Below, one piece after another: positions 976-7,992 of a DNA stretch of 64,000 bases. The translations under genes and the position numbers were made by a program. The notes under the pieces were generated by a model. It made no database searches. It saw nothing but the letters and a program-made list of their open reading frames with translations, and was not told the DNA's origin. Source of the stretch: Escherichia phage vB_EcoM_AYO145A. The stretch lies in the sequence record KR014248; one strand, given 5' to 3'. The stretch's first letter is position 1, and every line of letters starts with the position of its first letter.

Positions 976-1347
976 ATGAAAAACAGAACAAACAAAGGCC
1001 AGTTTAAAAAAGGCCAGTCTGGAAACCCATCTGGAAGACCAAAAGGCTCTCGTAACAAAAGCTCACTCGTAAAAGCTCAACTGACCATTGATAATTCTGC
1101 TGAGTTCGCTGCAAAGCTGTTTGAGGCGATTGTTACAAGGGACGCGGCTAAGCTTGCAGAGTTCGGGTTAAACACAGATGACGTAACCATCAAGAGTATG
1201 ATTGAGGTCGGTAAAACTATCTTTACTCACTCAGCAGGTGAGATGAAAGCACTTGCAGCAGACACTAAGAAGACTCCTGATAATGGTGGTCAACAACAGA
1301 CAGATAACAAACCAACGTTCTCTGCTGTAGCGACTCTCAAAAAATAA
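976..1347 (+). CDS. hypothetical protein with N-terminal GNPxGRPKG motif (DUF5681-like, from memory)
   Basis: 123-aa ORF with AAGAGG RBS. The motif KGQSGNPSGRPKGS recurs in small phage proteins. Confidence 0.6.
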   Translation: MKNRTNKGQFKKGQSGNPSGRPKGSRNKSSLVKAQLTIDNSAEFAAKLFEAIVTRDAAKLAEFGLNTDDVTIKSMIEVGKTIFTHSAGEMKALAADTKKTPDNGGQQQTDNKPTFSAVATLKK

Positions 1348-1428: not shown

Positions 1429-2844
1429 ATGAGCGAATTATTTAAACATGCGCACCTTCATGCAGGTCGAACTGAAAATGGTGCTGTAAACCATACTTCA
1501 TCAATGTCTGCTCTTGTAGACTTTTACAAAGCTGCTGGTTCTAGCCGTAGCAATGTAGGAATCTTACCAGACCTGTTCTACAAAGCTTTGCGTGAGGATG
1601 TTGATGTTGCAGTTCGTATTTTGCTTCATATGCGAGATGTACGAGAAGGTATGGGTGAGCGTAAAGCTTTCCGAACTGTTTTACTTCAAGCGATTGAAGA
1701 TAAAGTTTTAGAGCCTACGCAGGTTCTTCGCATTATGGATAAGATTGCAGAGCTTGGTCGTTTTGATGACTTCAAAATCTTCGTGGGTACTCGTTTCGAG
1801 ACAGATGCCTTCAAACATTTAGAAGCAGCATTACTAGACCCTGCAACAGCAGGTTTGGCAGCTAAGTGGTTACCACGAGTCAAACCACGTCATAAGCAGT
1901 TTGTAAAACGTTTCTGCAAGTTTGCAAACTTGAGTGAGAAAGAGTACCGCACACTGTTGTCTGCACTATCTGATACAGTTGAACAAAAAATCTCTGCTAA
2001 TGAGTTTGGTAAGATTGACTACAGTAAGATTCCTTCACTTGCTGCTGCACGTTACCAAAAACTCTTTAACCGTAAAGATGGAGAACGCTACAAAGCTTAC
2101 ATCGAGTCACTCTCAAAAGGTGAGGCCAAGATTAACGCTGGTGCTGTTTACCCATACGATGTGATTAAATCTATCAAGTATGGTAATGCAGATGTTGCTA
2201 ATGAGCAGTGGAAAGCACTACCAAACTGGATGGTAGAAGGTGAAAACATCCTGTGTATGACTGATGTTTCAAGCTCAATGTCTTGGGTGAATCTTGGTTC
2301 AATCACTGCCCTTGATATTGGTGTATCCCTTGCCTTGTATGTAGCAGAACGCAATACAGGTTGTTTTAAGAATGAGTTAATGGTTTATTCAACAAACCCT
2401 CATTTCATCGAATTGAGTGGTGATTTACGAAACCGTCATCGTCAGATAATGCGTCATGTTGAATATGGCTCAACTAACTTACAAGCAGCTTTTGACCGTA
2501 TTCTTGAAATAGGCAAGAGAAACAACTTGACTCAGAAAGATATGCCAAGTAAGCTTATTATCTTCTCTGATATGGAGTTCAATCAGGTTGATGGAGCTAA
2601 CGGTCGTACAAACTTTGAAGCAATTCAGAGTAAGTACAAAAAAGCTGGATATGAGATGCCACAACTGGTATTCTGGTACTTAGCAAACCGTAATGGTACT
2701 TGCGAAGTATCTGTTAAGGATAATGGTGTAGCAATGGTATCAGGGTTCTCTCCAGCCACTTTAAAAGCTCTGCTTGGTGGTGAGAAGTTTGACCCAATCA
2801 GCGTAATGCTCAAAGCAGTAATGATTGACCGTTATATCTGGTAA
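1429..2844 (+). CDS. Ro60-like protein: TROVE/DUF2828-like N-terminal region plus C-terminal vWA domain with MIDAS motif
   Basis: 471 aa. MIDAS DxSxS is present (CMTDVSSSM). The blocks DVSSSM, GSTN, IIFSDME, KYKKAGYEMPQLVFW and MVSGFSP occur in the same order as the Ro60 vWA blocks DVSASM, GGTD, IVFTDNE, YRKKMDIPAKLIV and DMCGFD. The N-terminal TENGAV...LVDFY resembles the DUF2828 signature. Confidence 0.65.
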   Translation: MSELFKHAHLHAGRTENGAVNHTSSMSALVDFYKAAGSSRSNVGILPDLFYKALREDVDVAVRILLHMRDVREGMGERKAFRTVLLQAIEDKVLEPTQVLRIMDKIAELGRFDDFKIFVGTRFETDAFKHLEAALLDPATAGLAAKWLPRVKPRHKQFVKRFCKFANLSEKEYRTLLSALSDTVEQKISANEFGKIDYSKIPSLAAARYQKLFNRKDGERYKAYIESLSKGEAKINAGAVYPYDVIKSIKYGNADVANEQWKALPNWMVEGENILCMTDVSSSMSWVNLGSITALDIGVSLALYVAERNTGCFKNELMVYSTNPHFIELSGDLRNRHRQIMRHVEYGSTNLQAAFDRILEIGKRNNLTQKDMPSKLIIFSDMEFNQVDGANGRTNFEAIQSKYKKAGYEMPQLVFWYLANRNGTCEVSVKDNGVAMVSGFSPATLKALLGGEKFDPISVMLKAVMIDRYIW

Positions 2845-3009: not shown

Positions 3010-3086
3010 CTCTGTTTAGCTCAGCTTGGTAGAGCGTTCCGTTTGGGGCGGTAAGGCCGGAGGTTCAAGTCCTCCAACAGAGACCA
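3010..3086 (+). tRNA. tRNA-Pro (anticodon TGG)
   Basis: Cloverleaf folded by eye. Acceptor CTCTGTT/AACAGAG, D-stem GCTC/GAGC, anticodon loop TTTGGGG, T-arm GGAGGTTCAAGTCCTCC. CCA is encoded. Confidence 0.9.
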
Positions 3087-3093
3087 AATTAAT

Positions 3094-3171
3094 GTTCCAG
3101 TAGACAAAATGGTAAAGTCACCACTCTTTCAAAGTGGATATTTGAGGGTTCAAATCCCTTCTGGAACGCCA
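3094..3171 (+). tRNA. tRNA-Glu (TTC)
   Basis: Acceptor GTTCCAG/CTGGAAC, anticodon stem-loop CCACT-CTTTCAA-AGTGG, T-loop TTCAAAT. CCA is encoded. Confidence 0.88.
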
Positions 3172-3178
3172 GTTTTGA

Positions 3179-3251
3179 CAGAAGACCAATTACAGCAAAC
3201 TTAATCTTATTCATCTGACACGAAATCGGACAAAGAAGAGATTTGGTCTGG
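3179..3251 (+). ncRNA. Y-RNA-like small RNA YL1 (conserved-clamp family, no tRNA module)
   Basis: 5' CAGAAGACC (3179-3187) and 3' GGTCTGG (3245-3251). Helix AGACCAA/TTGGTCT, with the conserved 5' extension TTACAGCAAA. Lies between tRNA-Glu and tRNA(CAT), 7-11 nt from each. Confidence 0.55.
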
Positions 3252-3262
3252 TCATTAAGAAT

Positions 3263-3339
3263 TGCGGGTATAGAGAAAGGGCGTCTCACATGTCTCATTA
3301 GCATGGTATCGGCAGGTTCGACTCCTGCACCCGCCTCCA
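3263..3339 (+). tRNA. tRNA with CAT anticodon (Met or Ile2); acceptor register uncertain
   Basis: D-stem GAGA/TCTC, anticodon stem-loop CATGT-CTCATTA-GCATG, T-arm GCAGGTTCGACTCCTGC, 3' ACCCGCC-T-CCA. The best acceptor pairing leaves a 1:72 T-C mismatch. Confidence 0.75.
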
Positions 3340-3345
3340 ATTTTG

Positions 3346-3405
3346 CAGAAGACCGTATGCAGCAATAAACTACTTTTTGCGGATAAAAGAAAAAACACGG
3401 TCTGG
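3346..3405 (+). ncRNA. Y-RNA-like small RNA YL2
   Basis: 5' CAGAAGACC (3346-3354) and 3' GGTCTGG (3399-3405). Helix AGACCGT/ACGGTCT covaries relative to YL1. Motif TGCAGCAA. Lies between tRNA(CAT) and tRNA-Asn. Confidence 0.55.
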
Positions 3406-3416
3406 CAATGTATTAA

Positions 3417-3493
3417 GGTTAGGAAGCACATAAGGTATGTGCGGTCGCCTGTTAAGCGAATGGCACAGGGTTCGAATCCCTGACTAACCGCCA
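3417..3493 (+). tRNA. tRNA-Asn (GTT)
   Basis: Acceptor GGTTAGG/ACTAACC (7:66 mismatch), D-stem GCAC/GTGC, anticodon loop CTGTTAA, T-arm CAGGGTTCGAATCCCTG. CCA is encoded. Confidence 0.85.
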
Positions 3494-3502
3494 AATTTAA
3501 AT

Positions 3503-3590
3503 GTGTCGTTATCCCGTAGATGGTAGCGGTGGGGACTGTAAATCCCTTGTCATTGAGACTCGGTAGGTTCGACTCCTACACGGCACACCA
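3503..3590 (+). tRNA. tRNA-Tyr (GTA), type II
   Basis: Acceptor GTGTCGT/ACGGCAC, anticodon stem-loop GGGGA-CTGTAAA-TCCCT, long variable arm, T-arm GTAGGTTCGACTCCTAC. CCA is encoded. Confidence 0.88.
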
Positions 3591-3596
3591 AATAAA

Positions 3597-3674
3597 GGTT
3601 ATGTAGTTTAATCTGGTTAAAATACTCCCCTGTCACGGGAGATGATGAGGGTTCAAATCCCTTCGTAACCGCCA
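3597..3674 (+). tRNA. tRNA-Asp (GTC)
   Basis: Acceptor GGTTATG/CGTAACC, anticodon stem-loop CTCCC-CTGTCAC-GGGAG, T-arm GAGGGTTCAAATCCCTT. CCA is encoded. Confidence 0.88.
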
Positions 3675-3728
3675 AATTATAATAAGTATTCCAAGATGAT
3701 GTTTTGAGAGGGCTATTTAGCCCCTCCC

Positions 3729-3756
3729 TTAAAGAGTTCTTACGAGTATTCTTTAA
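3729..3756 (+). repeat. conserved-loop hairpin H1 (family of 3-4 in the tRNA array)
   Basis: Stem TTAAAGA/TCTTTAA, loop GTTCTTACGAGTAT. Ends 5 nt before YL3. Confidence 0.6.
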
Positions 3757-3761
3757 AGGAG

Positions 3762-3838
3762 CAGAAGACCAAATTCAGCAAGTACGTATGATATTTTCAA
3801 GCCAATTTAATTTTGAAAAAATTTAAAACTTGGTCTGG
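3762..3838 (+). ncRNA. Y-RNA-like small RNA YL3
   Basis: 5' CAGAAGACC (3762-3770) and 3' GGTCTGG (3832-3838). Helix AGACCAA/TTGGTCT, motif TTCAGCAA, internal hairpin TTTTCAA/TTGAAAA. Confidence 0.55.
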
Positions 3839-3851
3839 CTCAACAAATTTA

Positions 3852-3983
3852 CAGAAGACCGTTTACAGCAAAACTTAAACAATCTATTTCTCCGGTAAAG
3901 AAAAGGCGAAGGTTCGATTCCTTCACTCGGCAGATGTCGAGTTGGTGTAATGGTAGCACTTAAGATGATAAACAACGGTCTGG
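3852..3983 (+). ncRNA. Y-RNA-like small RNA YL4 with a circularly permuted tRNA-like module (YrlA-like architecture)
   Basis: Clamp CAGAAGACC (3852-3860) and GGTCTGG (3977-3983). Helix AGACCGTT/AACGGTCT, then CTTAA (3874-78)/TTAAG (3960-64). T-arm GAAGG-TTCGATT-CCTTC (3908-24). Acceptor 3' strand ACTCGGC (3925-31), 4-nt AGAT link, acceptor 5' strand GTCGAGT (3936-42). D-arm GTGT-AATGGTA-GCAC (3945-59). Confidence 0.65.
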
Positions 3984-3984
3984 T

Positions 3985-4128
3985 AATTATCTTTGTAGAT
4001 AAGTTATTAAGCTTACCTGTGAGTATGCGACCACAAAGGGTGAAAGGGTAAATTCTAGATTTAAACCCAACAAGGCACATCGCTACAGACCTTAAGCAAG
4101 TCTGGGTAGCTTATCTACAAAGATAATT
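3985..4128 (+). ncRNA. structured element closed by a 19-bp perfect stem
   Basis: AATTATCTTTGTAGATAAG (3985-4003) pairs perfectly with CTTATCTACAAAGATAATT (4110-4128). The interior contains hairpin GCTACAGAC-CTTAAGCAA-GTCTGGGTAGC, which echoes the YL clamp. Confidence 0.45.
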
Positions 4129-4133
4129 TTAAT

Positions 4134-4209
4134 GGAAGTGTAGCAGAATGGTGATGCGGCAGACTTTTAATCTGACAGGCGATGGGTTCGAATCCCTCCA
4201 CTTCTACCA
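4134..4209 (+). tRNA. tRNA-Lys (TTT)
   Basis: Acceptor GGAAGTG/CACTTCT, anticodon loop CTTTTAA, T-loop TTCGAAT with an irregular T-stem (GATGGG/CCCTCC). CCA is encoded. Confidence 0.8.
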
Positions 4210-4213
4210 ATAT

Positions 4214-4290
4214 GGTTCAGTCGCAGATAAGGTAATGCAGGGGTCTCATAAGCCCTATGAATGTGGGTTCGATTCCCATCTGAACCTCCA
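4214..4290 (+). tRNA. tRNA with CAT anticodon (Met or Ile2)
   Basis: Acceptor GGTTCAG/CTGAACC, anticodon stem-loop GGGGT-CTCATAA-GCCCT, T-arm GTGGGTTCGATTCCCAT. CCA is encoded. Confidence 0.85.
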
Positions 4291-4291
4291 A

Positions 4292-4367
4292 GCTGGTATA
4301 GTTAAGAAGGTTATAACACTCCCCTGATAAGGGAACATCGGTGGTTCGATTCCACCTACCAGTACCA
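4292..4367 (+). tRNA. tRNA-Ile (GAT)
   Basis: Acceptor GCTGGTA/TACCAGT, anticodon loop CTGATAA, T-arm GGTGGTTCGATTCCACC. CCA is encoded. Confidence 0.88.
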
Positions 4368-4382
4368 ATTTCAATAAAGTTG

Positions 4383-4411
4383 TTGACATTGAGATGTGAC
4401 TACTTTATAGT
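4383..4411 (+). promoter_or_regulatory. consensus-like internal promoter within the tRNA array
   Basis: TTGACA at 4383-4388, a 17-nt spacer, TATAGT at 4406-4411. Confidence 0.7.
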
Positions 4412-4577
4412 AACCTTAGTTTTCGTTGCGTAGCGTCTATTTTGCAAATTTAAAATAAATGCAAACGACAATGTTTTTCTGGCAGTAGCTTGATAGGCTA
4501 AACACCAGTGAGGTCTTCCAATCCCTCATCAAAGAATTTGGCGTACTCGCCCACGGTATGATTAATAAGGTGGGCAT

Positions 4578-4608
4578 CTTTAAGGGCTTTCTAAGAGAGT
4601 CTTTAAAG
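4578..4608 (+). repeat. conserved-loop hairpin H2
   Basis: Stem CTTTAAGGG/TCTTTAAAG (with G-T wobbles), loop CTTTCTAAGAGAG. Ends 7 nt before the atypical tRNA(TCT). Confidence 0.55.
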
Positions 4609-4615
4609 ATAATTA

Positions 4616-4697
4616 CGGGGCGTATCTCAGCGGTCTTCTAAACCGCCGTTAACCGAGTAAGTGGAGTATGCGGGTTCGAGTCCTGCCGCCTCGACCA
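4616..4697 (+). tRNA. atypical tRNA-like gene, anticodon TCT (Arg), no recognisable D-arm
   Basis: Acceptor CGGGGCG/CGCCTCG, perfect anticodon stem-loop GCGGT-CTTCTAA-ACCGC, T-arm GCGGGTTCGAGTCCTGC. CCA is encoded. Only 7 nt lie between the acceptor and anticodon stems, and the variable region is 23 nt. Confidence 0.5.
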
Positions 4698-4839
4698 AAT
4701 AGTTAGCAGATTACTTAGACGGTCTTAGCGGGTCTTCCTGTAGGGAGGTGGTCTGTATCTCATGTTTTCCAGAACATGTAAATAATCTGAGAAGGGGCTT
4801 TACAGTGTTGAGATAATACGGTAAGCTTCGAATTATAGT

Positions 4840-4922
4840 GTGGGACGATGTTAAGACTCTAAGGCATGAGCAACGGCTTCCAACACCGTTTCAAAGGGGT
4901 TCAACTCCTCCGTCCCATGCCA
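4840..4922 (+). tRNA. atypical tRNA-like gene, best read as tRNA-Trp (CCA)
   Basis: Acceptor GTGGGAC/GTCCCAT, discriminator G, CCA, T-loop TTCAACT. The anticodon region reads either ACGGC-TTCCAAC-ACCGT (CCA, C31-A39 mismatch) or AACGG plus a 9-nt loop. The D region is oversized. Trp is otherwise the only amino acid missing from the array. Confidence 0.5.
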
Positions 4923-4935
4923 AAGTCTTATTAGG

Positions 4936-5023
4936 GGTAGGTAGCGGCTAATGGTAGCCAAACTGTCTTGAAAACAGTTGCCACTGTAGAGATACGGTGA
5001 GGGTTCGACTCCTTTACTTACCG
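4936..5023 (+). tRNA. tRNA-Ser (TGA), type II
   Basis: Acceptor GGTAGGT/ACTTACC, anticodon stem-loop ACTGT-CTTGAAA-ACAGT, long variable arm, T-loop TTCGACT. CCA is not encoded (the sequence is GCCT). Confidence 0.85.
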
Positions 5024-5280
5024 CCTAATAAGATTTAAAGCCAAGCTTCATTCGGATGTTGCTTTGGTATACCGCGTGTATTGTTGTACGCACTGATAAA
5101 GCACCTAGTAGGTGTCACGGAGAAGAGATAATATCAAGCTCTCCAAAGGTTCTAGTCACCGGATTAAACAAGACTATGCAAAGACCTTTTTAGGTCTTTT
5201 TAGAGGGCTTCTAAGGTTATTACAGCTTGTTGTGGAACCTTGTTGCTTAGGTTCTTAGAAGTTCTCTAAAAAGACTTAAT

Positions 5281-5358
5281 GGGAGATTGACGGTAATTGG
5301 TAAACCTATCTCGCTTAGAACGAGATGTTTGAGGGTTCGAATCCCTTGTCTCCTACCA
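5281..5358 (+). tRNA. tRNA with TAG anticodon (Leu), short variable region
   Basis: Acceptor GGGAGAT/GTCTCCT, anticodon stem-loop TCTCG-CTTAGAA-CGAGA, T-arm GAGGGTTCGAATCCCTT, A73, CCA. At 78 nt it lacks a type II long arm. Confidence 0.75.
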
Positions 5359-5365
5359 AATTAAT

Positions 5366-5441
5366 GCAGGTGTAGCAAAATGGTTATGCGGCTGACTCTT
5401 AATCAGTAAGACGATGGGTTCAATTCCCTCCACCTGTACCA
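5366..5441 (+). tRNA. tRNA-Lys (CTT)
   Basis: Acceptor GCAGGTG/CACCTGT, anticodon loop CTCTTAA, T-loop TTCAATT. CCA is encoded. Paralogous to the Lys(TTT) gene. Confidence 0.82.
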
Positions 5442-5447
5442 AACAAT

Positions 5448-5523
5448 GGGGATGTAGTTTACATGGTTAAAACATAAGTTTTGCAAACTTAAGTACAGGG
5501 TTCAATTCCCTGCTTCTCCACCA
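5448..5523 (+). tRNA. tRNA-Ala (TGC)
   Basis: Acceptor GGGGATG/CTTCTCC with a G3:T70 wobble (Ala identity pair), anticodon stem-loop TAAGT-TTTGCAA-ACTTA, T-arm CAGGGTTCAATTCCCTG. CCA is encoded. Confidence 0.85.
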
Positions 5524-5529
5524 ATTAGT

Positions 5530-5604
5530 GCATCCATAGTTTAAACGGGAAAATTACAGTCTTCCAAACTGAGGTTGAGGGTTCGATTCCCTCTGGATGC
5601 TCCA
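5530..5604 (+). tRNA. tRNA-Gly (TCC)
   Basis: Acceptor GCATCCA/TGGATGC, anticodon loop CTTCCAA, T-arm GAGGGTTCGATTCCCTC. CCA is encoded. Confidence 0.88.
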
Positions 5605-5610
5605 AACAAT

Positions 5611-5687
5611 GCTGCTTTCGTATAATTGGCTATTACACATCCCTTGTAAGGATGGAAATGCAGGTTCGAGTCCTGTGAGCAGCACCA
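5611..5687 (+). tRNA. tRNA-Thr (TGT)
   Basis: Acceptor GCTGCTT/GAGCAGC, anticodon stem-loop CATCC-CTTGTAA-GGATG, T-arm GCAGGTTCGAGTCCTGT. CCA is encoded. Confidence 0.88.
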
Positions 5688-5690
5688 ATT

Positions 5691-5779
5691 CAGAGGTCAA
5701 GTGAAAGACCGCTTTGAGTCAACTGAAGACCGTAACAAATTCCACGGAGTTGAGTTAGCGGCACAACTCCAGACCTCTT
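5691..5779 (+). ncRNA. structured spacer element between tRNA-Thr and tRNA-Val
   Basis: Outer stem AGAGGTC (5692-98)/GACCTCT (5772-78), inner hairpin GGAGTTG/CAACTCC. Contains CTGAAGACCGT, which resembles the YL 5' motif. Confidence 0.35.
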
Positions 5780-5783
5780 TCAT

Positions 5784-5858
5784 ACTCGCTTAGTTTATAT
5801 GGTAAAACATCACCCTTACAAGATGAAGAAAAAGGTTCAAGCCCTTTAGTGAGTACCA
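5784..5858 (+). tRNA. tRNA-Val (TAC)
   Basis: Acceptor ACTCGCT/AGTGAGT, D-stem GTTT/AAAC, anticodon loop CTTACAA, T-arm AAAGGTTCAAGCCCTTT. CCA is encoded. Confidence 0.85.
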
Positions 5859-5859
5859 T

Positions 5860-5937
5860 GTTCCAGTATCCCAATTGGCAGAGGATGCAAGCTCAAACCT
5901 TGTATTAGTGACGGTTCGAATCCGTCTTGGAACACCA
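5860..5937 (+). tRNA. tRNA with CAA anticodon (Leu), short variable region
   Basis: Acceptor GTTCCAG/TTGGAAC, Leu-like D-loop CCAATTGGCAGAGG, anticodon stem-loop GCAAG-CTCAAAC-CTTGT, T-arm GACGGTTCGAATCCGTC, A73, CCA. 78 nt. Confidence 0.78.
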
Positions 5938-5942
5938 ATTTT

Positions 5943-6018
5943 GCAGGATTAGTTCAAATGGAAAGAGCAACAGTCTACGAAGCTGTTAATAGGGGTTCGA
6001 ATCCCTTATCCTGCGCCA
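5943..6018 (+). tRNA. tRNA-Arg (ACG)
   Basis: Acceptor GCAGGAT/ATCCTGC, D-stem GTTC/GAGC, anticodon stem-loop ACAGT-CTACGAA-GCTGT, T-arm AGGGGTTCGAATCCCTT. CCA is encoded. Confidence 0.88.
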
Positions 6019-6037
6019 ATTTAAAGAGGCTATTTAG

Positions 6038-6595
6038 ATGAGATATTTGAAGTATGCTTCATGGATTTTCTTAGCTTTGTTAGAGCCATTTGCAGCAATC
6101 TTAGCAGTTATCTTAGCACCTTTCGTAGTTCCATTCTACAGTGAGAAGAAAGGCCACTTACCTTTCGGATTTAGATGGATGGAGACCTATGACAACCCGA
6201 TTGATGGTGATGAAGGCCACGTTAAAAGATGGGCTAAGATTAGAAAGATTGGTAAGCTCGGTGTTTATATGCAGAGAGTTGGATGGCTCTGGAGAAACAA
6301 AGCTTATAACTTCTCTTACCATGTATTAGGAAGAGATGTAAAAGATGTTACTAAGTGGAAAGGTAATATCAACGTAAGTTCTAACCCTGAAGATAATCAG
6401 ACAGGTTATCTCCTAATGTGGAACAGTAATGCTTGGGGATTATTTGCTTTTATCCCATCTATTAAAGTCTTTGGTAAACAATTCTACTGGAGAATTTATG
6501 TTGGGTGGAAACTAAAAAGTGTTGTCCCAGAAGAAAGAGCATTCTCAAGGGAAAGAGTTATGTTGGCATTCTTTATTCATCCACTAAGAAAATAA
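6038..6595 (+). CDS. hypothetical membrane protein embedded in the tRNA array
   Basis: 185-aa ORF with AAAGAGG RBS. The N-terminus is hydrophobic (WIFLALLEPFAAILAVILAPFVVPF). Confidence 0.7.
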   Translation: MRYLKYASWIFLALLEPFAAILAVILAPFVVPFYSEKKGHLPFGFRWMETYDNPIDGDEGHVKRWAKIRKIGKLGVYMQRVGWLWRNKAYNFSYHVLGRDVKDVTKWKGNINVSSNPEDNQTGYLLMWNSNAWGLFAFIPSIKVFGKQFYWRIYVGWKLKSVVPEERAFSRERVMLAFFIHPLRK

Positions 6596-6603
6596 AGATT
6601 TAA

Positions 6604-6679
6604 AGGGGATTAGTTTACAAGGTTAAAACCTCGGTCTTTGAAATCGAAGAAGTTGGTTCAATTCCAACATCCCCCGCCA
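6604..6679 (+). tRNA. tRNA-Gln (TTG)
   Basis: Acceptor AGGGGAT/ATCCCCC (1:72 A-C mismatch), anticodon stem-loop TCGGT-CTTTGAA-ATCGA, T-arm GTTGGTTCAATTCCAAC. CCA is encoded. Confidence 0.82.
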
Positions 6680-6681
6680 AT

Positions 6682-6760
6682 GCTCCATTACTCCAATTGG
6701 CAGAGAGGCCAGACTTAAAATCTGTGTTATGTATCGGTTCGAATCCGATATGGAGTACCA
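6682..6760 (+). tRNA. tRNA with TAA anticodon (Leu), short variable region
   Basis: Acceptor GCTCCAT/ATGGAGT, D-loop CCAATTGGCAGAG, anticodon loop CTTAAAA, T-arm ATCGGTTCGAATCCGAT, A73, CCA. 79 nt. Confidence 0.78.
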
Positions 6761-6765
6761 AATTT

Positions 6766-6841
6766 AGCGGTATAGCATAACTGGCAATGCAACAGTCTCT
6801 GAAGCTGTCCTATTAAGGTTCAAATCCTTATGCCGCTGCCA
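6766..6841 (+). tRNA. tRNA-Gln (CTG)
   Basis: Acceptor AGCGGTA/TGCCGCT, D-stem GCAT/ATGC, anticodon stem-loop ACAGT-CTCTGAA-GCTGT, T-arm TAAGGTTCAAATCCTTA. CCA is encoded. Confidence 0.85.
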
Positions 6842-6845
6842 CTTC

Positions 6846-6869
6846 TAAGGGTTCTTACGAGAGTCCTTA
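6846..6869 (+). repeat. conserved-loop hairpin H3
   Basis: Stem TAAGGG/TCCTTA covaries with H1. Loop TTCTTACGAGAG. Ends 3 nt before tRNA-His. Confidence 0.6.
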
Positions 6870-6872
6870 AAT

Positions 6873-6948
6873 GTGGCCTTATCATAAAAGGTAATGACCC
6901 ATGCTGTGAACATGGTCTATACGGGTTCAAATCCCGTAGGTCACCCCA
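6873..6948 (+). tRNA. tRNA-His (GTG)
   Basis: Acceptor GTGGCCT/AGGTCAC, anticodon stem-loop CCATG-CTGTGAA-CATGG, T-arm ACGGGTTCAAATCCCGT, C73, CCA. Confidence 0.88.
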
Positions 6949-6954
6949 ATTTAT

Positions 6955-7030
6955 AGTCCAAGTAGCTTATATGGTTAAAGCGCGTGTCTGAAAAACATGA
7001 GAAGAGGGTTCAAATCCCACTGGACTACCA
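6955..7030 (+). tRNA. tRNA-Phe (GAA); acceptor-stem register ambiguous
   Basis: D-stem GCTT/AAGC, anticodon stem-loop CGTGT-CTGAAAA-ACATG, T-loop TTCAAAT. A perfect 7-bp pairing TAGTCCA/TGGACTA leaves no discriminator before CCA, and other registers leave a bulge. Confidence 0.75.
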
Positions 7031-7046
7031 ATTTCAAAGGTGCTTA

Positions 7047-7781
7047 ATGAAAGAGATGACAGAACAAGGTAAGGAGATTTTTAATCTCTTAAAAACCGGT
7101 AAAGGGTTCTCTAACCCGCTTATTACTGGTGCAGCAGTTCTCGGTGGAACCGTAGCTGCTTCTACATCACTTGTAAGCTCTATTAGTTCTGTAACAGACC
7201 CTACAATGAAGGAGAAACTTGTTGCTGCTGGACTTACAACAGTCCTTTTAAACAGCTTTACAACAAGCCTTACAAGCACTACAGCAACTACTAAGACCCT
7301 AACAGACTACGGTCAAAAGTCTATTGATGAGTTTTCATCACGTATGCAGGTAGCAAAGGGATACTCCAATGTTATGGGTGCAGTAGGAGAACAAGTTGGT
7401 TGTACACCATTCAGTGGTATTATGGGTGTTGCTACAGAGTATGGTCAAAAAGCTATTGACACAATTAACAGTGCACTAGACGGTGTTAATGATGTATTAA
7501 GTGACTTACAAGATGCTATTGATAAAGGTCTTGATACTGTTTCTGATTTAGCTAACCAAGCTGTTAGTAAGATTAATGAAGGTATCTCAAAGATTACAGC
7601 TTATGCAGATGAAGTTGTGCAGATGATTGAAGAAGAAGCTGCCCTTATTGCAGAGTACCTTAAAACAAATATCAATGGGTTCTTAGCAGGTATCTTACCA
7701 GACTGGTTTGATGATGCTTGTAAAACTGGTGTGATTGATACTATTGCAACACCAGAAATGAAGAACGCATTACAGAAATAA
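7047..7781 (+). CDS. hypothetical Ser/Thr-rich coiled-coil protein embedded in the tRNA array
   Basis: Track ORF 6984..7781 trimmed to ATG 7047, because the upstream part overlaps tRNA-Phe. AAAGGTG RBS. Confidence 0.65.
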   Translation: MKEMTEQGKEIFNLLKTGKGFSNPLITGAAVLGGTVAASTSLVSSISSVTDPTMKEKLVAAGLTTVLLNSFTTSLTSTTATTKTLTDYGQKSIDEFSSRMQVAKGYSNVMGAVGEQVGCTPFSGIMGVATEYGQKAIDTINSALDGVNDVLSDLQDAIDKGLDTVSDLANQAVSKINEGISKITAYADEVVQMIEEEAALIAEYLKTNINGFLAGILPDWFDDACKTGVIDTIATPEMKNALQK

Positions 7782-7782
7782 T

Positions 7783-7875
7783 GGAAGATTAACCCTAAAA
7801 GGTAAGGGAGCAGTTTGCTAAACTGCCAGTAGCTGAGAAATCGGTGTACCAGTTCAAGTCTGGTATCTTCCTCCA
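7783..7875 (+). tRNA. tRNA-Ser (GCT), type II
   Basis: Acceptor GGAAGAT/ATCTTCC, anticodon stem-loop GCAGT-TTGCTAA-ACTGC, 21-nt variable arm, T-arm ACCAGTTCAAGTCTGGT. CCA is encoded. Starts 2 nt after the stop of CDS 7047..7781. Confidence 0.88.
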
Positions 7876-7879
7876 ATTT

Positions 7880-7955
7880 GAATCCGTGACAGAAATGGCT
7901 ATGTGCCTGTCTGCAAAACAGGTTTATAAGGGTTCGAGTCCCTTCGGATTCTCCA
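7880..7955 (+). tRNA. tRNA-Cys (GCA)
   Basis: Acceptor GAATCCG/CGGATTC, anticodon stem-loop CCTGT-CTGCAAA-ACAGG, T-arm AAGGGTTCGAGTCCCTT. CCA is encoded. Confidence 0.9.
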
Positions 7956-7992
7956 AGTTATTTTACTCTCTCTCAATTAAAATAATAATAAT

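What the first reader, a model, noticed from the sequence alone, without database searches (positions are those of the whole stretch)
3852..3983. Circularly permuted tRNA-like module inside YL4 (a YrlA-style tRNA mimic)
Reading 5' to 3', the element contains:
- Clamp helix, then a 5-bp helix CTTAA/TTAAG in the place of an anticodon stem.
- A small hairpin TTTCT-CCGGTAA-AGAAA.
- A canonical T-arm GAAGG-TTCGATT-CCTTC.
- Acceptor 3' strand ACTCGGC, a 4-nt AGAT closure, and acceptor 5' strand GTCGAGT. This gives 7 bp including one G-T.
- TG, then a D-arm GTGT-AATGGTA-GCAC that retains the GG needed to contact the T-loop.

The result is a tRNA body with a closed acceptor end and no anticodon loop. 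It is entered through the anticodon stem. This topology has been reported for the effector domain of bacterial YrlA Y RNAs.
Basis: seen in the sequence. Interest (0 to 1): 0.88.

Follow-up and report, generated by a model that had tools for sequence, protein, structure and literature searches.

The report
Phage Y-like RNA carrying permuted tRNA
A Felix O1-type phage encodes, just downstream of a gene for a protein shaped like the RNA-chaperone Ro60, a 130-base RNA whose core is a whole tRNA with its ends rewired; the same protein-plus-RNA pairing recurs in many unrelated phages and appears undescribed.

Summary
Window 3852-3983 (+) folds as described: terminal clamp, small hairpin, T arm, closed 7-bp acceptor, D arm. 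An unconstrained consensus fold recovers these helices in related Ounavirinae genera. The acceptor is rewritten by compensatory changes, so a decayed tRNA pair is excluded.

The YrlA-style reading is largely right but needs three corrections.
1. The small hairpin is an anticodon-arm equivalent. Un-permuted, the module is called tRNA-Thr(GGU) by ARAGORN. The CTTAA/TTAAG helix is not conserved. The module is therefore a whole cloverleaf opened at about positions 26/27, not an anticodon-less YrlA body.
2. The element fails Rfam YrlA and lacks the 5' GNCGAA motif. It carries its own signature: an AGA…/…UCU-G clamp followed by U-rich-CAGCAA. YL1-3 share it.

In 76 loci encoding this protein family, clamp/CAGCAA RNAs cluster within 500 nt of the gene (62 of 94 hits). 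Several carry T-acceptor-D modules.

Best explanation: a Y-RNA-like scaffold for a phage Ro60-like protein, with a tRNA-shaped effector module. It is a new variant of a known kind. Binding and function are inferred, not shown.

The parts
1429..2844 (+). Gene for a 471-aa Ro60-fold protein (Pfam DUF2828 + DUF7788 + weak VWA_2; PHROG 850 'RNA-binding protein'). Proposed protein partner of YL1-YL4.
3178..3253 (+). YL1: clamp AGACCAA/TTGGTCT, then UUA-CAGCAA, then a short variable insert with a 5-bp/7-nt hairpin. Lies between tRNA-Glu and tRNA-Met.
3345..3407 (+). YL2: clamp AGACCGT/ACGGTCT, then AUG-CAGCAA, then a small hairpin. Lies between tRNA-Met and tRNA-Asn.
3761..3840 (+). YL3: clamp AGACCAA/TTGGTCT, then AUU-CAGCAA, then an AT-rich insert.
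3852..3983 (+). YL4, the finding: the whole Y-like RNA, consisting of a clamp, the CAGCAA loop and a permuted tRNA module.
3856..3863 (+). YL4 clamp, 5' strand AGACCGTT. Pairs with 3974-3981.
   Evidence: MFE fold. Conserved, with one C-to-U change giving a G-U pair in Mijalis. All 6 clamp pairs show double changes across 16 sequences.
3866..3871 (+). CAGCAA motif, single-stranded in the MFE fold. It is the family signature and the proposed protein-recognition element.
   Evidence: Invariant in YL1-4 and their homologues. Present as C[A/C]GCA[A/U/G] after the clamp in elements next to distant DUF2828 genes.
3887..3903 (+). Anticodon-arm equivalent: TTTCT-CCGGTAA-AGAAA (5 bp, 7-nt loop, 'anticodon' GGU, C instead of U at position 33).
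   Evidence: The Rfam tRNA model aligns it as the anticodon arm. ARAGORN calls a tRNA on the un-permuted sequence. Relatives have loops CUGGUAA, CUGCUAA, CUUCUAA and CUAUAAA.
3904..3907 (+). 4-nt variable-loop equivalent, AGGC.
3908..3924 (+). T arm: GAAGG-TTCGATT-CCTTC.
   Evidence: The stem covaries in L088/L090 (CATGG/CCATG) and in distant loci.
3925..3942 (+). Closed acceptor stem: ACTCGGC-AGAT-GTCGAGT (7 bp).
   Evidence: Compensatory variants: ACACGT/GCGTGT (SUSP2, Sf17, ESh22), ACCCTTC/GAAGGGT (HP1, Mijalis), CGCTCCC/GGGAGTG (L088), CGTGGT/GCCACG (L090).
3943..3959 (+). U8-G9 linker and D arm GTGT-AATGGTA-GCAC, with A14, G18, G19 and A21.
3974..3981 (+). YL4 clamp, 3' strand AACGGTCT, followed by unpaired GG (3982-3983).

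Best explanation
YL4 is a non-coding, Y-RNA-like scaffold RNA of a Felix O1-type phage (Felixounavirus).

It is transcribed with the first block of the phage tRNA cluster, downstream of promoter-like sites at about 2863-2983. It is probably released by the tRNA-processing cuts that flank it (inferred).

Its base consists of the AGACCGUU/AACGGUCU clamp and the adjacent unpaired U-rich-CAGCAA loop. YL1-3 share this base. It is proposed to dock the phage's Ro60-fold protein, the product of ORF 1429-2844 (inferred from linkage, not shown).

Its distal part is a complete tRNA cloverleaf in circularly permuted order: anticodon arm, 4-nt variable loop, T arm, acceptor closed by a 4-nt loop, U8-G9, D arm. 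The nucleotides that build the tRNA elbow are kept.

By analogy with Ro60/Y RNA particles, the tRNA-shaped module would recruit a tRNA-binding factor or enzyme, or compete for one. In known particles the Y RNA tethers Ro60 to an effector such as PNPase, and YrlA presents a tRNA-like effector domain. The resulting phage particle would be directed towards tRNA surveillance, repair or turnover during infection. The specific effector is unknown.

The module most likely arose from a tandem duplication of one tRNA gene. The T arm and 3' acceptor strand would come from copy 1, and the 5' acceptor strand and D arm from copy 2.
For: Structure and conservation:
- MFE fold.
- Presence in 251 phage records.
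- Unconstrained consensus fold with compensatory acceptor pairs.
- Five different acceptor sequences in homologues.
- U8 in 21/21, A14 in 20/21 and A21 in 21/21 elements, although none of these was required by the search descriptor.

Whole cloverleaf:
- Partial Rfam tRNA hit of 22 bits over the anticodon arm, variable loop and T arm.
- ARAGORN calls a tRNA on the un-permuted sequence of the window and of 4 relatives.

Protein:
- Ro60 is the only full-length structural match.
- The MIDAS residues are invariant.

Linkage:
- The gene is on the same strand, 1 kb upstream.
- Synteny is kept in contigs whose protein is 53-63% identical.
- In 76 loci (925 kb) the strict clamp/CAGCAA descriptor gives 94 hits on the gene's strand against 13 on the other strand. 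62 of the 94 lie within 500 nt of the gene, and 50 of 76 loci have at least one hit.
- T-acceptor-D modules inside the same clamp/CAGCAA frame occur in distant loci and are not part of called tRNA genes.
- In L092, which has no tRNAs, two CAGCAA-clamp RNAs and a terminator directly follow the gene. The gene there is flanked by a T4 Rnl1-type RNA ligase and a phosphoesterase.

Precedent:
- Canonical TROVE Ro60 of mycobacteriophages and of Thermus phage phiLo binds phage-encoded Y-like RNAs, and phiLo Ro60 assembles with host PNPase (PMC4201824, PMC12135203).

Origin:
- N73-CCA sits directly after the acceptor 3' strand in HP1/Mijalis (GCCAAACA), L088 (ACCAACUAU) and L049b (GCCAAUU).
Against: - There is no expression, binding or processing data.
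- The protein-RNA pairing rests on genomic linkage and on analogy.
- The protein has no sequence-level match to TROVE, and the RNA lacks the known Ro60-binding motif. Any binding mode must therefore differ from the characterised one.
- The folding z-score of YL4 alone is modest.
- The canonical Levitt pair (R15-Y48) is not formed in the window's own clade (A15 with C48 or A48). It is formed in only 11 of 21 elements.
- The descriptors are ad hoc.
- The distant elements were selected for perfect pairing, so the 100% pairing is by construction.
- The minus-strand control for the T-acceptor-D descriptor is weak, because the phage tRNAs lie on the same strand as the gene.
- One related contig (L087) has YL1-3 but no detectable YL4.
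Confidence: 0.6

Rival explanations
1. A processed, two-piece functional tRNA. RNase P cuts in the acceptor loop 5' of G3936, the upstream fragment is trimmed and receives CCA, and the clamp holds the two pieces together. The product acts as an aminoacylatable tRNA or a near-tRNA.
For: The window acceptor has the 7 bp that RNase P requires. M. smegmatis YrlA, which has a 7-bp stem, is cleaved by RNase P and gains CCA (PMC4201824). N73-CCA is encoded after the acceptor 3' strand in HP1/Mijalis, L088 and L049b. The un-permuted sequence is a canonical cloverleaf.
Against: Close relatives have a 6-bp acceptor capped by a UACG tetraloop (SUSP2, Sf17, ESh22). L013 has a 3-bp acceptor, and L031, L035 and L020 have none. 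The 'anticodon' is not conserved: GGU, AUA, GCU and UCU all occur. The window has C rather than U at position 33. The chain break at 26/27 sits at the core of the fold. The phage already encodes tRNA-Thr(UGU).
Confidence: 0.1
2. A processing or spacer element of the tRNA operon. The clamp helices would serve as RNase III/E entry sites, and the tRNA-like body as an RNase P/Z guide. It would be functionally unrelated to the upstream protein.
For: YL1-4 sit between tRNAs inside one transcription unit. Several distant loci also place these RNAs in or next to tRNA clusters.
Against: The same RNA class directly follows or precedes DUF2828 genes where no tRNA is present (L092). 62 of 94 descriptor hits lie within 500 nt of the gene. 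A conserved single-stranded CAGCAA motif and a complete tRNA elbow are not needed for a nuclease entry site.
Confidence: 0.08
3. A free-standing tRNA decoy. YL4 would soak up a host tRNA-targeting defence nuclease or sensor, acting independently of the Ro60-like protein.
For: It is a full cloverleaf with an anticodon-type loop. It lies in a phage tRNA cluster. From general knowledge, phage tRNAs are reported to counter tRNA-targeting defences. An RNA ligase and a phosphoesterase neighbour the gene in L092.
Against: This does not explain the shared clamp/CAGCAA base of YL1-3, which have no tRNA module. It does not explain the tight linkage to the Ro60-like gene. The anticodon loop is variable among relatives.
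Confidence: 0.1
4. A decaying pair of tRNA pseudogenes (the 3' half of one, the 5' half of the next) with no function.
For: The T arm, NCCA-like spacer and D arm order is what a tRNA-tRNA junction looks like. Weak covariance-model hits at real tRNA junctions show that the geometry is shared.
Against: The element is conserved across Felixounavirus, Suspvirus and Mooglevirus, and in contigs whose protein is about 55% identical, with compensatory changes in the acceptor and T stems. It is enclosed by a conserved clamp. Analogous modules occur next to homologous genes in distant phages.
Confidence: 0.03

Closest known systems
YrlA (Y RNA-like A; Rfam RF02553), the tRNA-mimicking Y RNA bound by bacterial Ro60/Rsr (Chen et al. 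2014, PMC4201824; structure preprint 10.1101/312249)
   Same: - A terminal helix plus protein-binding region, and a distal tRNA-like module in the order (V hairpin), T arm, closed acceptor stem, D arm.
- The elbow nucleotides are kept.
- It is encoded close to, and on the same strand as, a Ro60-fold gene.
- Some phages are known to carry such pairs.
- A relative's module (L024) aligns to YrlA model positions 24-84.
   Different: - No Rfam hit for the window element.
- The T and D stems differ: GAAGG and GUGU/GCAC here, against the conserved GCGGG and GCUC/GAGC of YrlA.
- There is no 5' GNCGAAN0-1G. The signature here is AGA…/…UCU-G plus CAGCAA.
- The partner protein is DUF2828/DUF7788, which is not detectable as TROVE by sequence.
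- The module keeps an anticodon-arm equivalent and is opened at about 26/27 rather than through the anticodon stem.
- Four paralogous RNAs are embedded in a tRNA cluster.
Mycobacterium smegmatis YrlA (PMC4201824)
   Same: A 7-bp acceptor-like stem closed by a loop.
   Different: [quoted passage not shown] Close relatives of YL4 have 6-bp acceptors capped by a tetraloop.
Thermus phage phiLo Ro60 with Yrl1/Yrl2 (PMC12135203; PDB 9KOP, 9L5Y)
   Different: The phiLo protein is a recognisable TROVE protein. Its RNAs carry the CGAA motif in a stem-bulge-stem, and no tRNA-like module is reported for them.
Deinococcus radiodurans Yrn1 and metazoan Y RNAs
   Same: A modular design: a terminal stem that binds Ro60, plus a distal effector module. 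The Yrn1 module has a T-arm-like hairpin and tethers PNPase.
   Different: The Ro-binding helix sequence and the arm order differ, and there is no closed acceptor.
Circularly permuted tRNA genes of Cyanidioschyzon merolae and some archaea (from memory; also mentioned in 10.1101/312249)
   Same: The 3' half of a tRNA is encoded upstream of its 5' half, with the acceptor ends joined by a short linker.
   Different: Those transcripts are processed into normal linear tRNAs through a circular intermediate, using a splicing endonuclease that is absent here. In YL4 the permuted form is embedded in a larger RNA and is probably the functional form.

Membership tests
YrlA (Rfam RF02553) | Scores at or above the Rfam gathering threshold (69 bits) with the YrlA covariance model | tested here: not met
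   No YrlA match at E <= 10 in window 3650-4150, and none at gathering threshold in the whole window. A distant relative, L024:5865-5927, scores 39.2 bits over model positions 24-84 only.
YrlA (Chen et al. 2014) | tRNA-like domain in the order T arm, closed acceptor-like stem-loop, D arm | tested here: met
   Acceptor covariation.
YrlA (Chen et al. 2014; Wang et al. preprint) | Conserved nucleotides for tRNA tertiary contacts: U8, A14, G18-G19, A21, T-loop UUCRA, and the Levitt pair 15-48 | tested here: inconclusive
   U8, A14, G18G19, A21 and UUCGA are present in the window and nearly invariant in 21 elements. The Levitt pair is A15/C48 (non-canonical) in the window clade and canonical in 11 of 21 elements.
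YrlA (Chen et al. 2014) | GNCGAAN0-1G motif near the 5' end (presumed Ro60 contact) | tested here: not met
   The 5' region reads AGACCGUUUACAGCAA. The only GGCGAAG (3903-3909) lies at the variable-loop/T-stem junction and is not conserved in ESh22, HP1 or L088.
YrlA (Wang et al. preprint 10.1101/312249) | No anticodon loop; the module is joined to the rest of the RNA through the anticodon-stem equivalent | tested here: not met
   A 5-bp/7-nt hairpin followed by a 4-nt variable loop precedes the T arm. The un-permuted sequence is called tRNA-Thr(GGU). CTTAA/TTAAG is not conserved. The hairpin could equally be filed as the optional 'V' stem-loop of YrlA.
YrlA / Y RNA | Encoded within about 4 kb of a Ro60 orthologue, on the same strand | tested here: met
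   YL4 starts 1,012 nt downstream of ORF 1429-2844 on the same strand. That protein is Ro60-like by structure only.
YrlA / Y RNA | Physically bound by Ro60/Rsr; modified by TruB and DusA | not testable with these tools
   Needs immunoprecipitation, gel-shift assays and modification mapping.
Ro60 / TROVE proteins | Pfam TROVE (PF05731) or sequence similarity to solved Ro60 structures | tested here: not met
   Pfam at E <= 10 gives only DUF7788, DUF2828 and VWA_2. phmmer and profile searches of PDB sequences find no Ro60.
Ro60 / TROVE proteins | Alpha-helical repeat ring followed by a vWA domain with a MIDAS site | tested here: met
Canonical tRNA gene | Detected in native order by tRNA finders, or by Rfam tRNA at its gathering score | tested here: not met
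   ARAGORN does not call it. Rfam tRNA scores 22 bits against a threshold of 29 and covers only positions 7-64. The 129-nt 'tRNA-Thr-GGT' in some GenBank records is a tRNAscan-SE artefact spanning YL3/YL4.

The most novel reading that the evidence does not exclude
The DUF2828/DUF7788 proteins are a large, phage-borne branch of the Ro60 fold: 2,837 database clusters matched at E <= 0.001. Members occur in Felix O1-like, KVP40-like and many uncultivated phages. Each appears to have its own, so far undescribed, family of Y-like RNAs. These RNAs are defined by an AGA…/…UCU-G clamp plus a CAGCAA loop, and their variable heads include whole circularly permuted tRNAs. Together they would form a phage particle that interfaces with host or phage tRNA metabolism, for example tRNA repair or surveillance, or a counter to tRNA-targeting immunity.
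Probability: 0.45. Interest if true: 0.85.

Novelty: new variant of a known kind. Interest (0 to 1): 0.75.

Why it matters
The effector and purpose of the tRNA-like domain of bacterial Y RNAs (YrlA) are still unknown. Here the same design principle turns up in Felix O1-type phages, which are easily grown and genetically tractable. It is paired with a Ro60-fold protein that sequence methods do not recognise, and it sits inside a tRNA cluster.

If the pairing is real, three things follow.
- The Ro60/Y RNA system extends to a large and previously unannotated set of phage genes and non-coding regions.
- It provides a natural series of RNAs (YL1-4: the same base, different heads) for dissecting how Y RNAs choose effectors.
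- It gives a concrete evolutionary intermediate for the proposal that Y RNAs arose from duplicated tRNAs: a whole permuted cloverleaf with relic CCA.

It also corrects recurrent mis-annotations in GenBank phage records, namely the 129-nt 'tRNA-Thr' and the small 'hypothetical proteins' drawn over these RNAs.

Tried and rejected
- Exact-motif search for the Felix-type 5' motif (GACC…CAGC) in 80 IMG/VR loci found it only in Ounavirinae. The conserved part turned out to be the shorter C[A/C]GCA motif plus clamp geometry.
- The loose clamp descriptor had high background (294 hits on the plus strand against 191 on the minus strand). It was replaced by a strict one.
- MAFFT alignments of distant modules were out of register in the acceptor and D arms. 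I therefore used an N-padded, block-wise alignment for pair counting. Pairing there is 100% by construction, so only the diversity of pair types is informative.
- Covariance model R1, built from 7 sequences, was too narrow. It missed L024 and L074 and gave weak hits at genuine tRNA-tRNA junctions. I did not use its E-values for the census.
- Sequence-level searches of the protein against PDB and against Pfam TROVE found nothing. Only structure comparison revealed Ro60.
- Rfam E-value scans of YL-rich regions found no family other than the partial YrlA and tRNA hits.
- Literature searches found no paper linking DUF2828 or Felix O1-type phages with Y RNAs. Burroughs & Aravind 2016 and the 2020 Annual Review were not held. 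The supplementary phage list of Chen et al. 2014 was not available. Prior description therefore cannot be fully excluded.
- I considered CTTAA/TTAAG, and alternatively ATCT/AGAT, as the anticodon-stem equivalent. The first is not conserved. The second is conserved but invariant, so it is uninformative.
Full report
**Context.** The window comes from a Felix O1-type myophage (Felixounavirus). Region 3680-4135 is 96-99.6% identical to many Escherichia, Salmonella and Shigella Felixounavirus genomes. A cluster of 25 tRNA genes lies at 3010-7955, all on the + strand. Promoter-like sites at 2863-2891 and 2954-2983 precede it, and another lies at 4383-4411. The finding therefore sits in the first tRNA transcription unit, between tRNA-Asp (ends 3674) and tRNA-Lys (starts 4134).

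**The observation.**
- Clamp: 3856-3863 with 3974-3981.
- CTTAA/TTAAG: 3874-3878 with 3960-3964.
- Small hairpin: 3887-3903.
- T arm: 3908-3924.
- Closed 7-bp acceptor: 3925-3942.
- UG linker, then D arm 3945-3959.

The unconstrained MFE fold gives exactly this structure, but its energy is only modestly better than shuffles (z = -1.85). The real support is comparative.

**Conservation within Ounavirinae.** The element is found in 251 phage records, 244 of them at 80% coverage or more. In Suspvirus and Mooglevirus genomes, and in two metagenomic Ounavirinae-like contigs whose upstream protein is about 55% identical, the closed acceptor is rewritten by compensatory changes:

| Lineage | Acceptor 3' strand / 5' strand | Loop |
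|---|---|---|
| Felixounavirus (window) | ACTCGGC / GTCGAGT | AGAU |
| SUSP2, Sf17, ESh22 | ACACGT / GCGTGT | UACG |
| HP1, Mijalis | ACCCTTC / GAAGGGT | GCCAAACA |
| L088 | CGCTCCC / GGGAGTG | ACCAACUAU |
| L090 | CGTGGT / GCCACG | UAAG |

The T stem also changes, from GAAGG/CCTTC to CATGG/CCATG. RNAalifold, run without constraints on seven sequences, predicts the clamp, T arm, closed acceptor and D arm. It does not predict CTTAA/TTAAG, and that helix cannot form in SUSP2 or Sf17.

**What the small hairpin is.** It has a 5-bp stem and a 7-nt loop. Exactly four nucleotides follow it before the T arm.
- The Rfam tRNA model aligns hairpin, AGGC and T arm as anticodon arm, variable loop and T arm (22 bits, below the threshold of 29).
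- Some GenBank records carry a 129-nt tRNAscan-SE 'tRNA-Thr-GGT' over this region.
- I re-joined the sequence in normal tRNA order: 5' acceptor strand, U8-G9, D arm, N26, hairpin, AGGC, T arm, 3' acceptor strand. ARAGORN then called a canonical tRNA-Thr(GGU). It also called a tRNA for the equivalents from SUSP2, L088, L090 and L093.

The module is thus a complete cloverleaf circularly permuted at about positions 26/27, with the acceptor ends joined. It is not an anticodon-less body entered through the anticodon stem. The 'anticodon' is not conserved among relatives (GGU, AUA, GCU, UCU), and the window has C at position 33. A decoding role is therefore unlikely.

**Four paralogous RNAs.** YL4 shares its base with three neighbours: YL1 at about 3178-3253, YL2 at about 3345-3407, and YL3 at about 3761-3840. 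All begin …AGAAGACC-N5-CAGCAA and end …GGTCTGG. All four are conserved in the related genera.

**The neighbouring protein.** ORF 1429-2844 lies 1 kb upstream on the same strand.
- It matches Pfam DUF2828, DUF7788 and, weakly, VWA_2. It matches PHROG 850, 'RNA-binding protein'. It has no TROVE match and no sequence-level PDB match.
- An AlphaFold2 model built from 35 homologues is confident (pLDDT 88.8, pTM 0.89).
- The top 11 Foldseek hits in PDB are all Ro60/TROVE structures.
- A MIDAS-type DxSxS…T…D set is invariant in the family.

The phage therefore encodes a Ro60-fold protein directly upstream of four Y-like RNAs.

**Generality.** I fetched 80 IMG/VR loci encoding relatives of this protein, mostly 39-47% identical, and several assembly contigs.
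- A descriptor for T arm, perfectly paired closed acceptor, 2 nt, then D arm found 23 hits. All were on the gene's strand. Apart from one 5-bp hit (L046), which looks like a tRNA-tRNA junction, they lie in diverse loci where they are not part of called tRNA genes.
- In each case the module sits inside a terminal helix whose 5' strand is followed by a U-rich stretch and CAGCAA or CCGCAA, as in YL4.
- A strict descriptor for this base (AG-helix, 1-5 nt, C[A/C]GCA, …, helix-CU, G) gave 94 hits on the gene strand against 13 on the opposite strand in 925 kb. 62 of the 94 lie within 500 nt of the gene, and 50 of 76 loci have at least one hit.
- In L093, four such RNAs directly follow the gene. One (7843-7959) has the same arrangement of anticodon-type hairpin, 4-nt variable loop, T arm, closed acceptor and D arm as YL4.
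- In L092 there are no tRNAs at all. Two CAGCAA-clamp RNAs and an intrinsic terminator still follow the gene, which is flanked there by a T4 Rnl1-type RNA ligase and a metallophosphoesterase.

This argues that the RNAs belong with the protein, not with tRNA processing.

**Caveats on the statistics.**
- The descriptors are my own.
- The distant elements were selected for pairing, so the 100% pairing is circular. Only the spread of pair types is informative: 18 of 22 pairs show double changes.
- The opposite-strand control for the tRNA-like descriptor is weak, because phage tRNAs share the gene's strand.
- Features not required by the descriptor are nevertheless nearly invariant: U8 in 21/21, A14 in 20/21, A21 in 21/21. 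The Levitt pair is canonical in 11 of 21 (permutation p about 0.03), but not in the window's clade.

**Comparison with the known.** YrlA RNAs are Y RNAs bound by bacterial Ro60. Their effector domain is a tRNA mimic with the order (V), T, closed acceptor, D. They carry a GNCGAAN0-1G motif near the 5' end and are encoded within about 4 kb of Ro60 on the same strand (PMC4201824). The crystal-structure paper calls them circularly permuted tRNAs that lack a CCA end and an anticodon loop (10.1101/312249).

YL4 shares the design and the linkage but fails membership on four counts.
- There is no Rfam YrlA hit at E <= 10. A relative's module scores 39.2 bits against a threshold of 69, over the tRNA-like part only.
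- There is no 5' GNCGAA motif.
- The T and D stem sequences differ.
- An anticodon-arm equivalent is present.

Phage Ro60/Y-like RNA pairs are documented for mycobacteriophages, CcrColossus, Bacillus phage G and Thermus phage phiLo. All of those have recognisable TROVE proteins (PMC4201824, PMC12135203). A jumbo-phage survey mentions 'ROT/TROVE' proteins with 'a tRNA-like partner' only in general terms (PMC7824862). No paper in the searchable library links DUF2828 or Felix O1-type phages to Y RNAs.

**Mechanism proposed.**

Shown:
- The RNA architecture, its conservation and its covariation.
- The Ro60 fold of the neighbouring protein.
- The genomic linkage of the RNA class with the protein family.

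Inferred:
- The clamp and CAGCAA loop bind the protein.
- The RNAs are released from the tRNA transcript.
- The tRNA-shaped head engages a tRNA-binding factor, so that the particle acts on tRNA metabolism during infection.

**Origin.** The N73-CCA relics directly after the acceptor 3' strand in HP1/Mijalis, L088 and L049b, together with the perfect cloverleaf after un-permutation, point to origin from a tandem duplication of a single tRNA gene. This refines the dimeric-tRNA model cited in 10.1101/312249.

**Verdict.** This is a new variant of a known kind: a Y RNA/YrlA-like tRNA mimic with a divergent Ro60-fold partner. It probably represents a widespread and undescribed phage RNA-protein family.

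Noticed in passing
window 3984-4131 (+): A 148-nt element directly after YL4. A closing stem of about 24 bp encloses several small hairpins. MFE is -48.3 kcal/mol, z = -5.7, and 0 of 200 shuffles fold as well. There is no Rfam hit. Citrobacter phage Mijalis has the same long-stem layout at the same place with a different stem sequence, which suggests a conserved structured RNA of unknown function.
   Followed up: partly
window 4616-4694 (+): An Rfam tRNA hit just above threshold (31.7 bits) that ARAGORN does not call. It may be an aberrant tRNA or a tRNA-like element in the gap between tRNA-Ile and tRNA-Ser.
   Followed up: no
window 976-1347 (+): A 123-aa DUF5681 protein lies directly upstream of the Ro60-like gene. 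The same pair is adjacent in four other Ounavirinae-like contigs. It may be a third component.
   Followed up: partly
window 3178-3253, 3345-3407 (YL1, YL2); L093 7635-7689: The short YL RNAs each carry a single 5-bp hairpin with a 7-nt loop as their head: UCUGA-CACGAAA-UCGGA, CUUUU-UGCGGAU-AAAAG and CUUUU-AUUGGAA-AAAAG. Whether this is an anticodon-arm remnant was not examined.
   Followed up: no
L031 5879-5921, L035 5830-5871, L020 1569-1610: A variant head directly upstream of the Ro60-like gene. A T arm is followed after 6-7 nt by a D arm (GTGT-AACGGTA-GCAC) with no acceptor stem, inside the same clamp/CAGCAA frame.
   Followed up: partly
L092 4279-5391 and 7842-8555: In a tRNA-free locus the Ro60-like gene is flanked by a T4 Rnl1-type RNA ligase and a metallophosphoesterase. 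This hints at an RNA-repair context.
   Followed up: no
L001 1460-1588 (= window 3804-3932); other GenBank records: Several deposited Felixounavirus genomes annotate a 129-nt 'tRNA-Thr-GGT', or small hypothetical proteins, over YL3/YL4. These are probably mis-annotations.
   Followed up: yes
window 6038-6595 and 6984-7781 (+): Two protein genes of unknown function (DUF7338 and DUF7217) are embedded in the tRNA cluster. DUF7217 recurs in the related contig L087.
   Followed up: no
L024 11696-11922 (+): A group I intron (Rfam 71.5 bits) lies in an uncultivated phage contig that also carries the Ro60-like gene.
   Followed up: no
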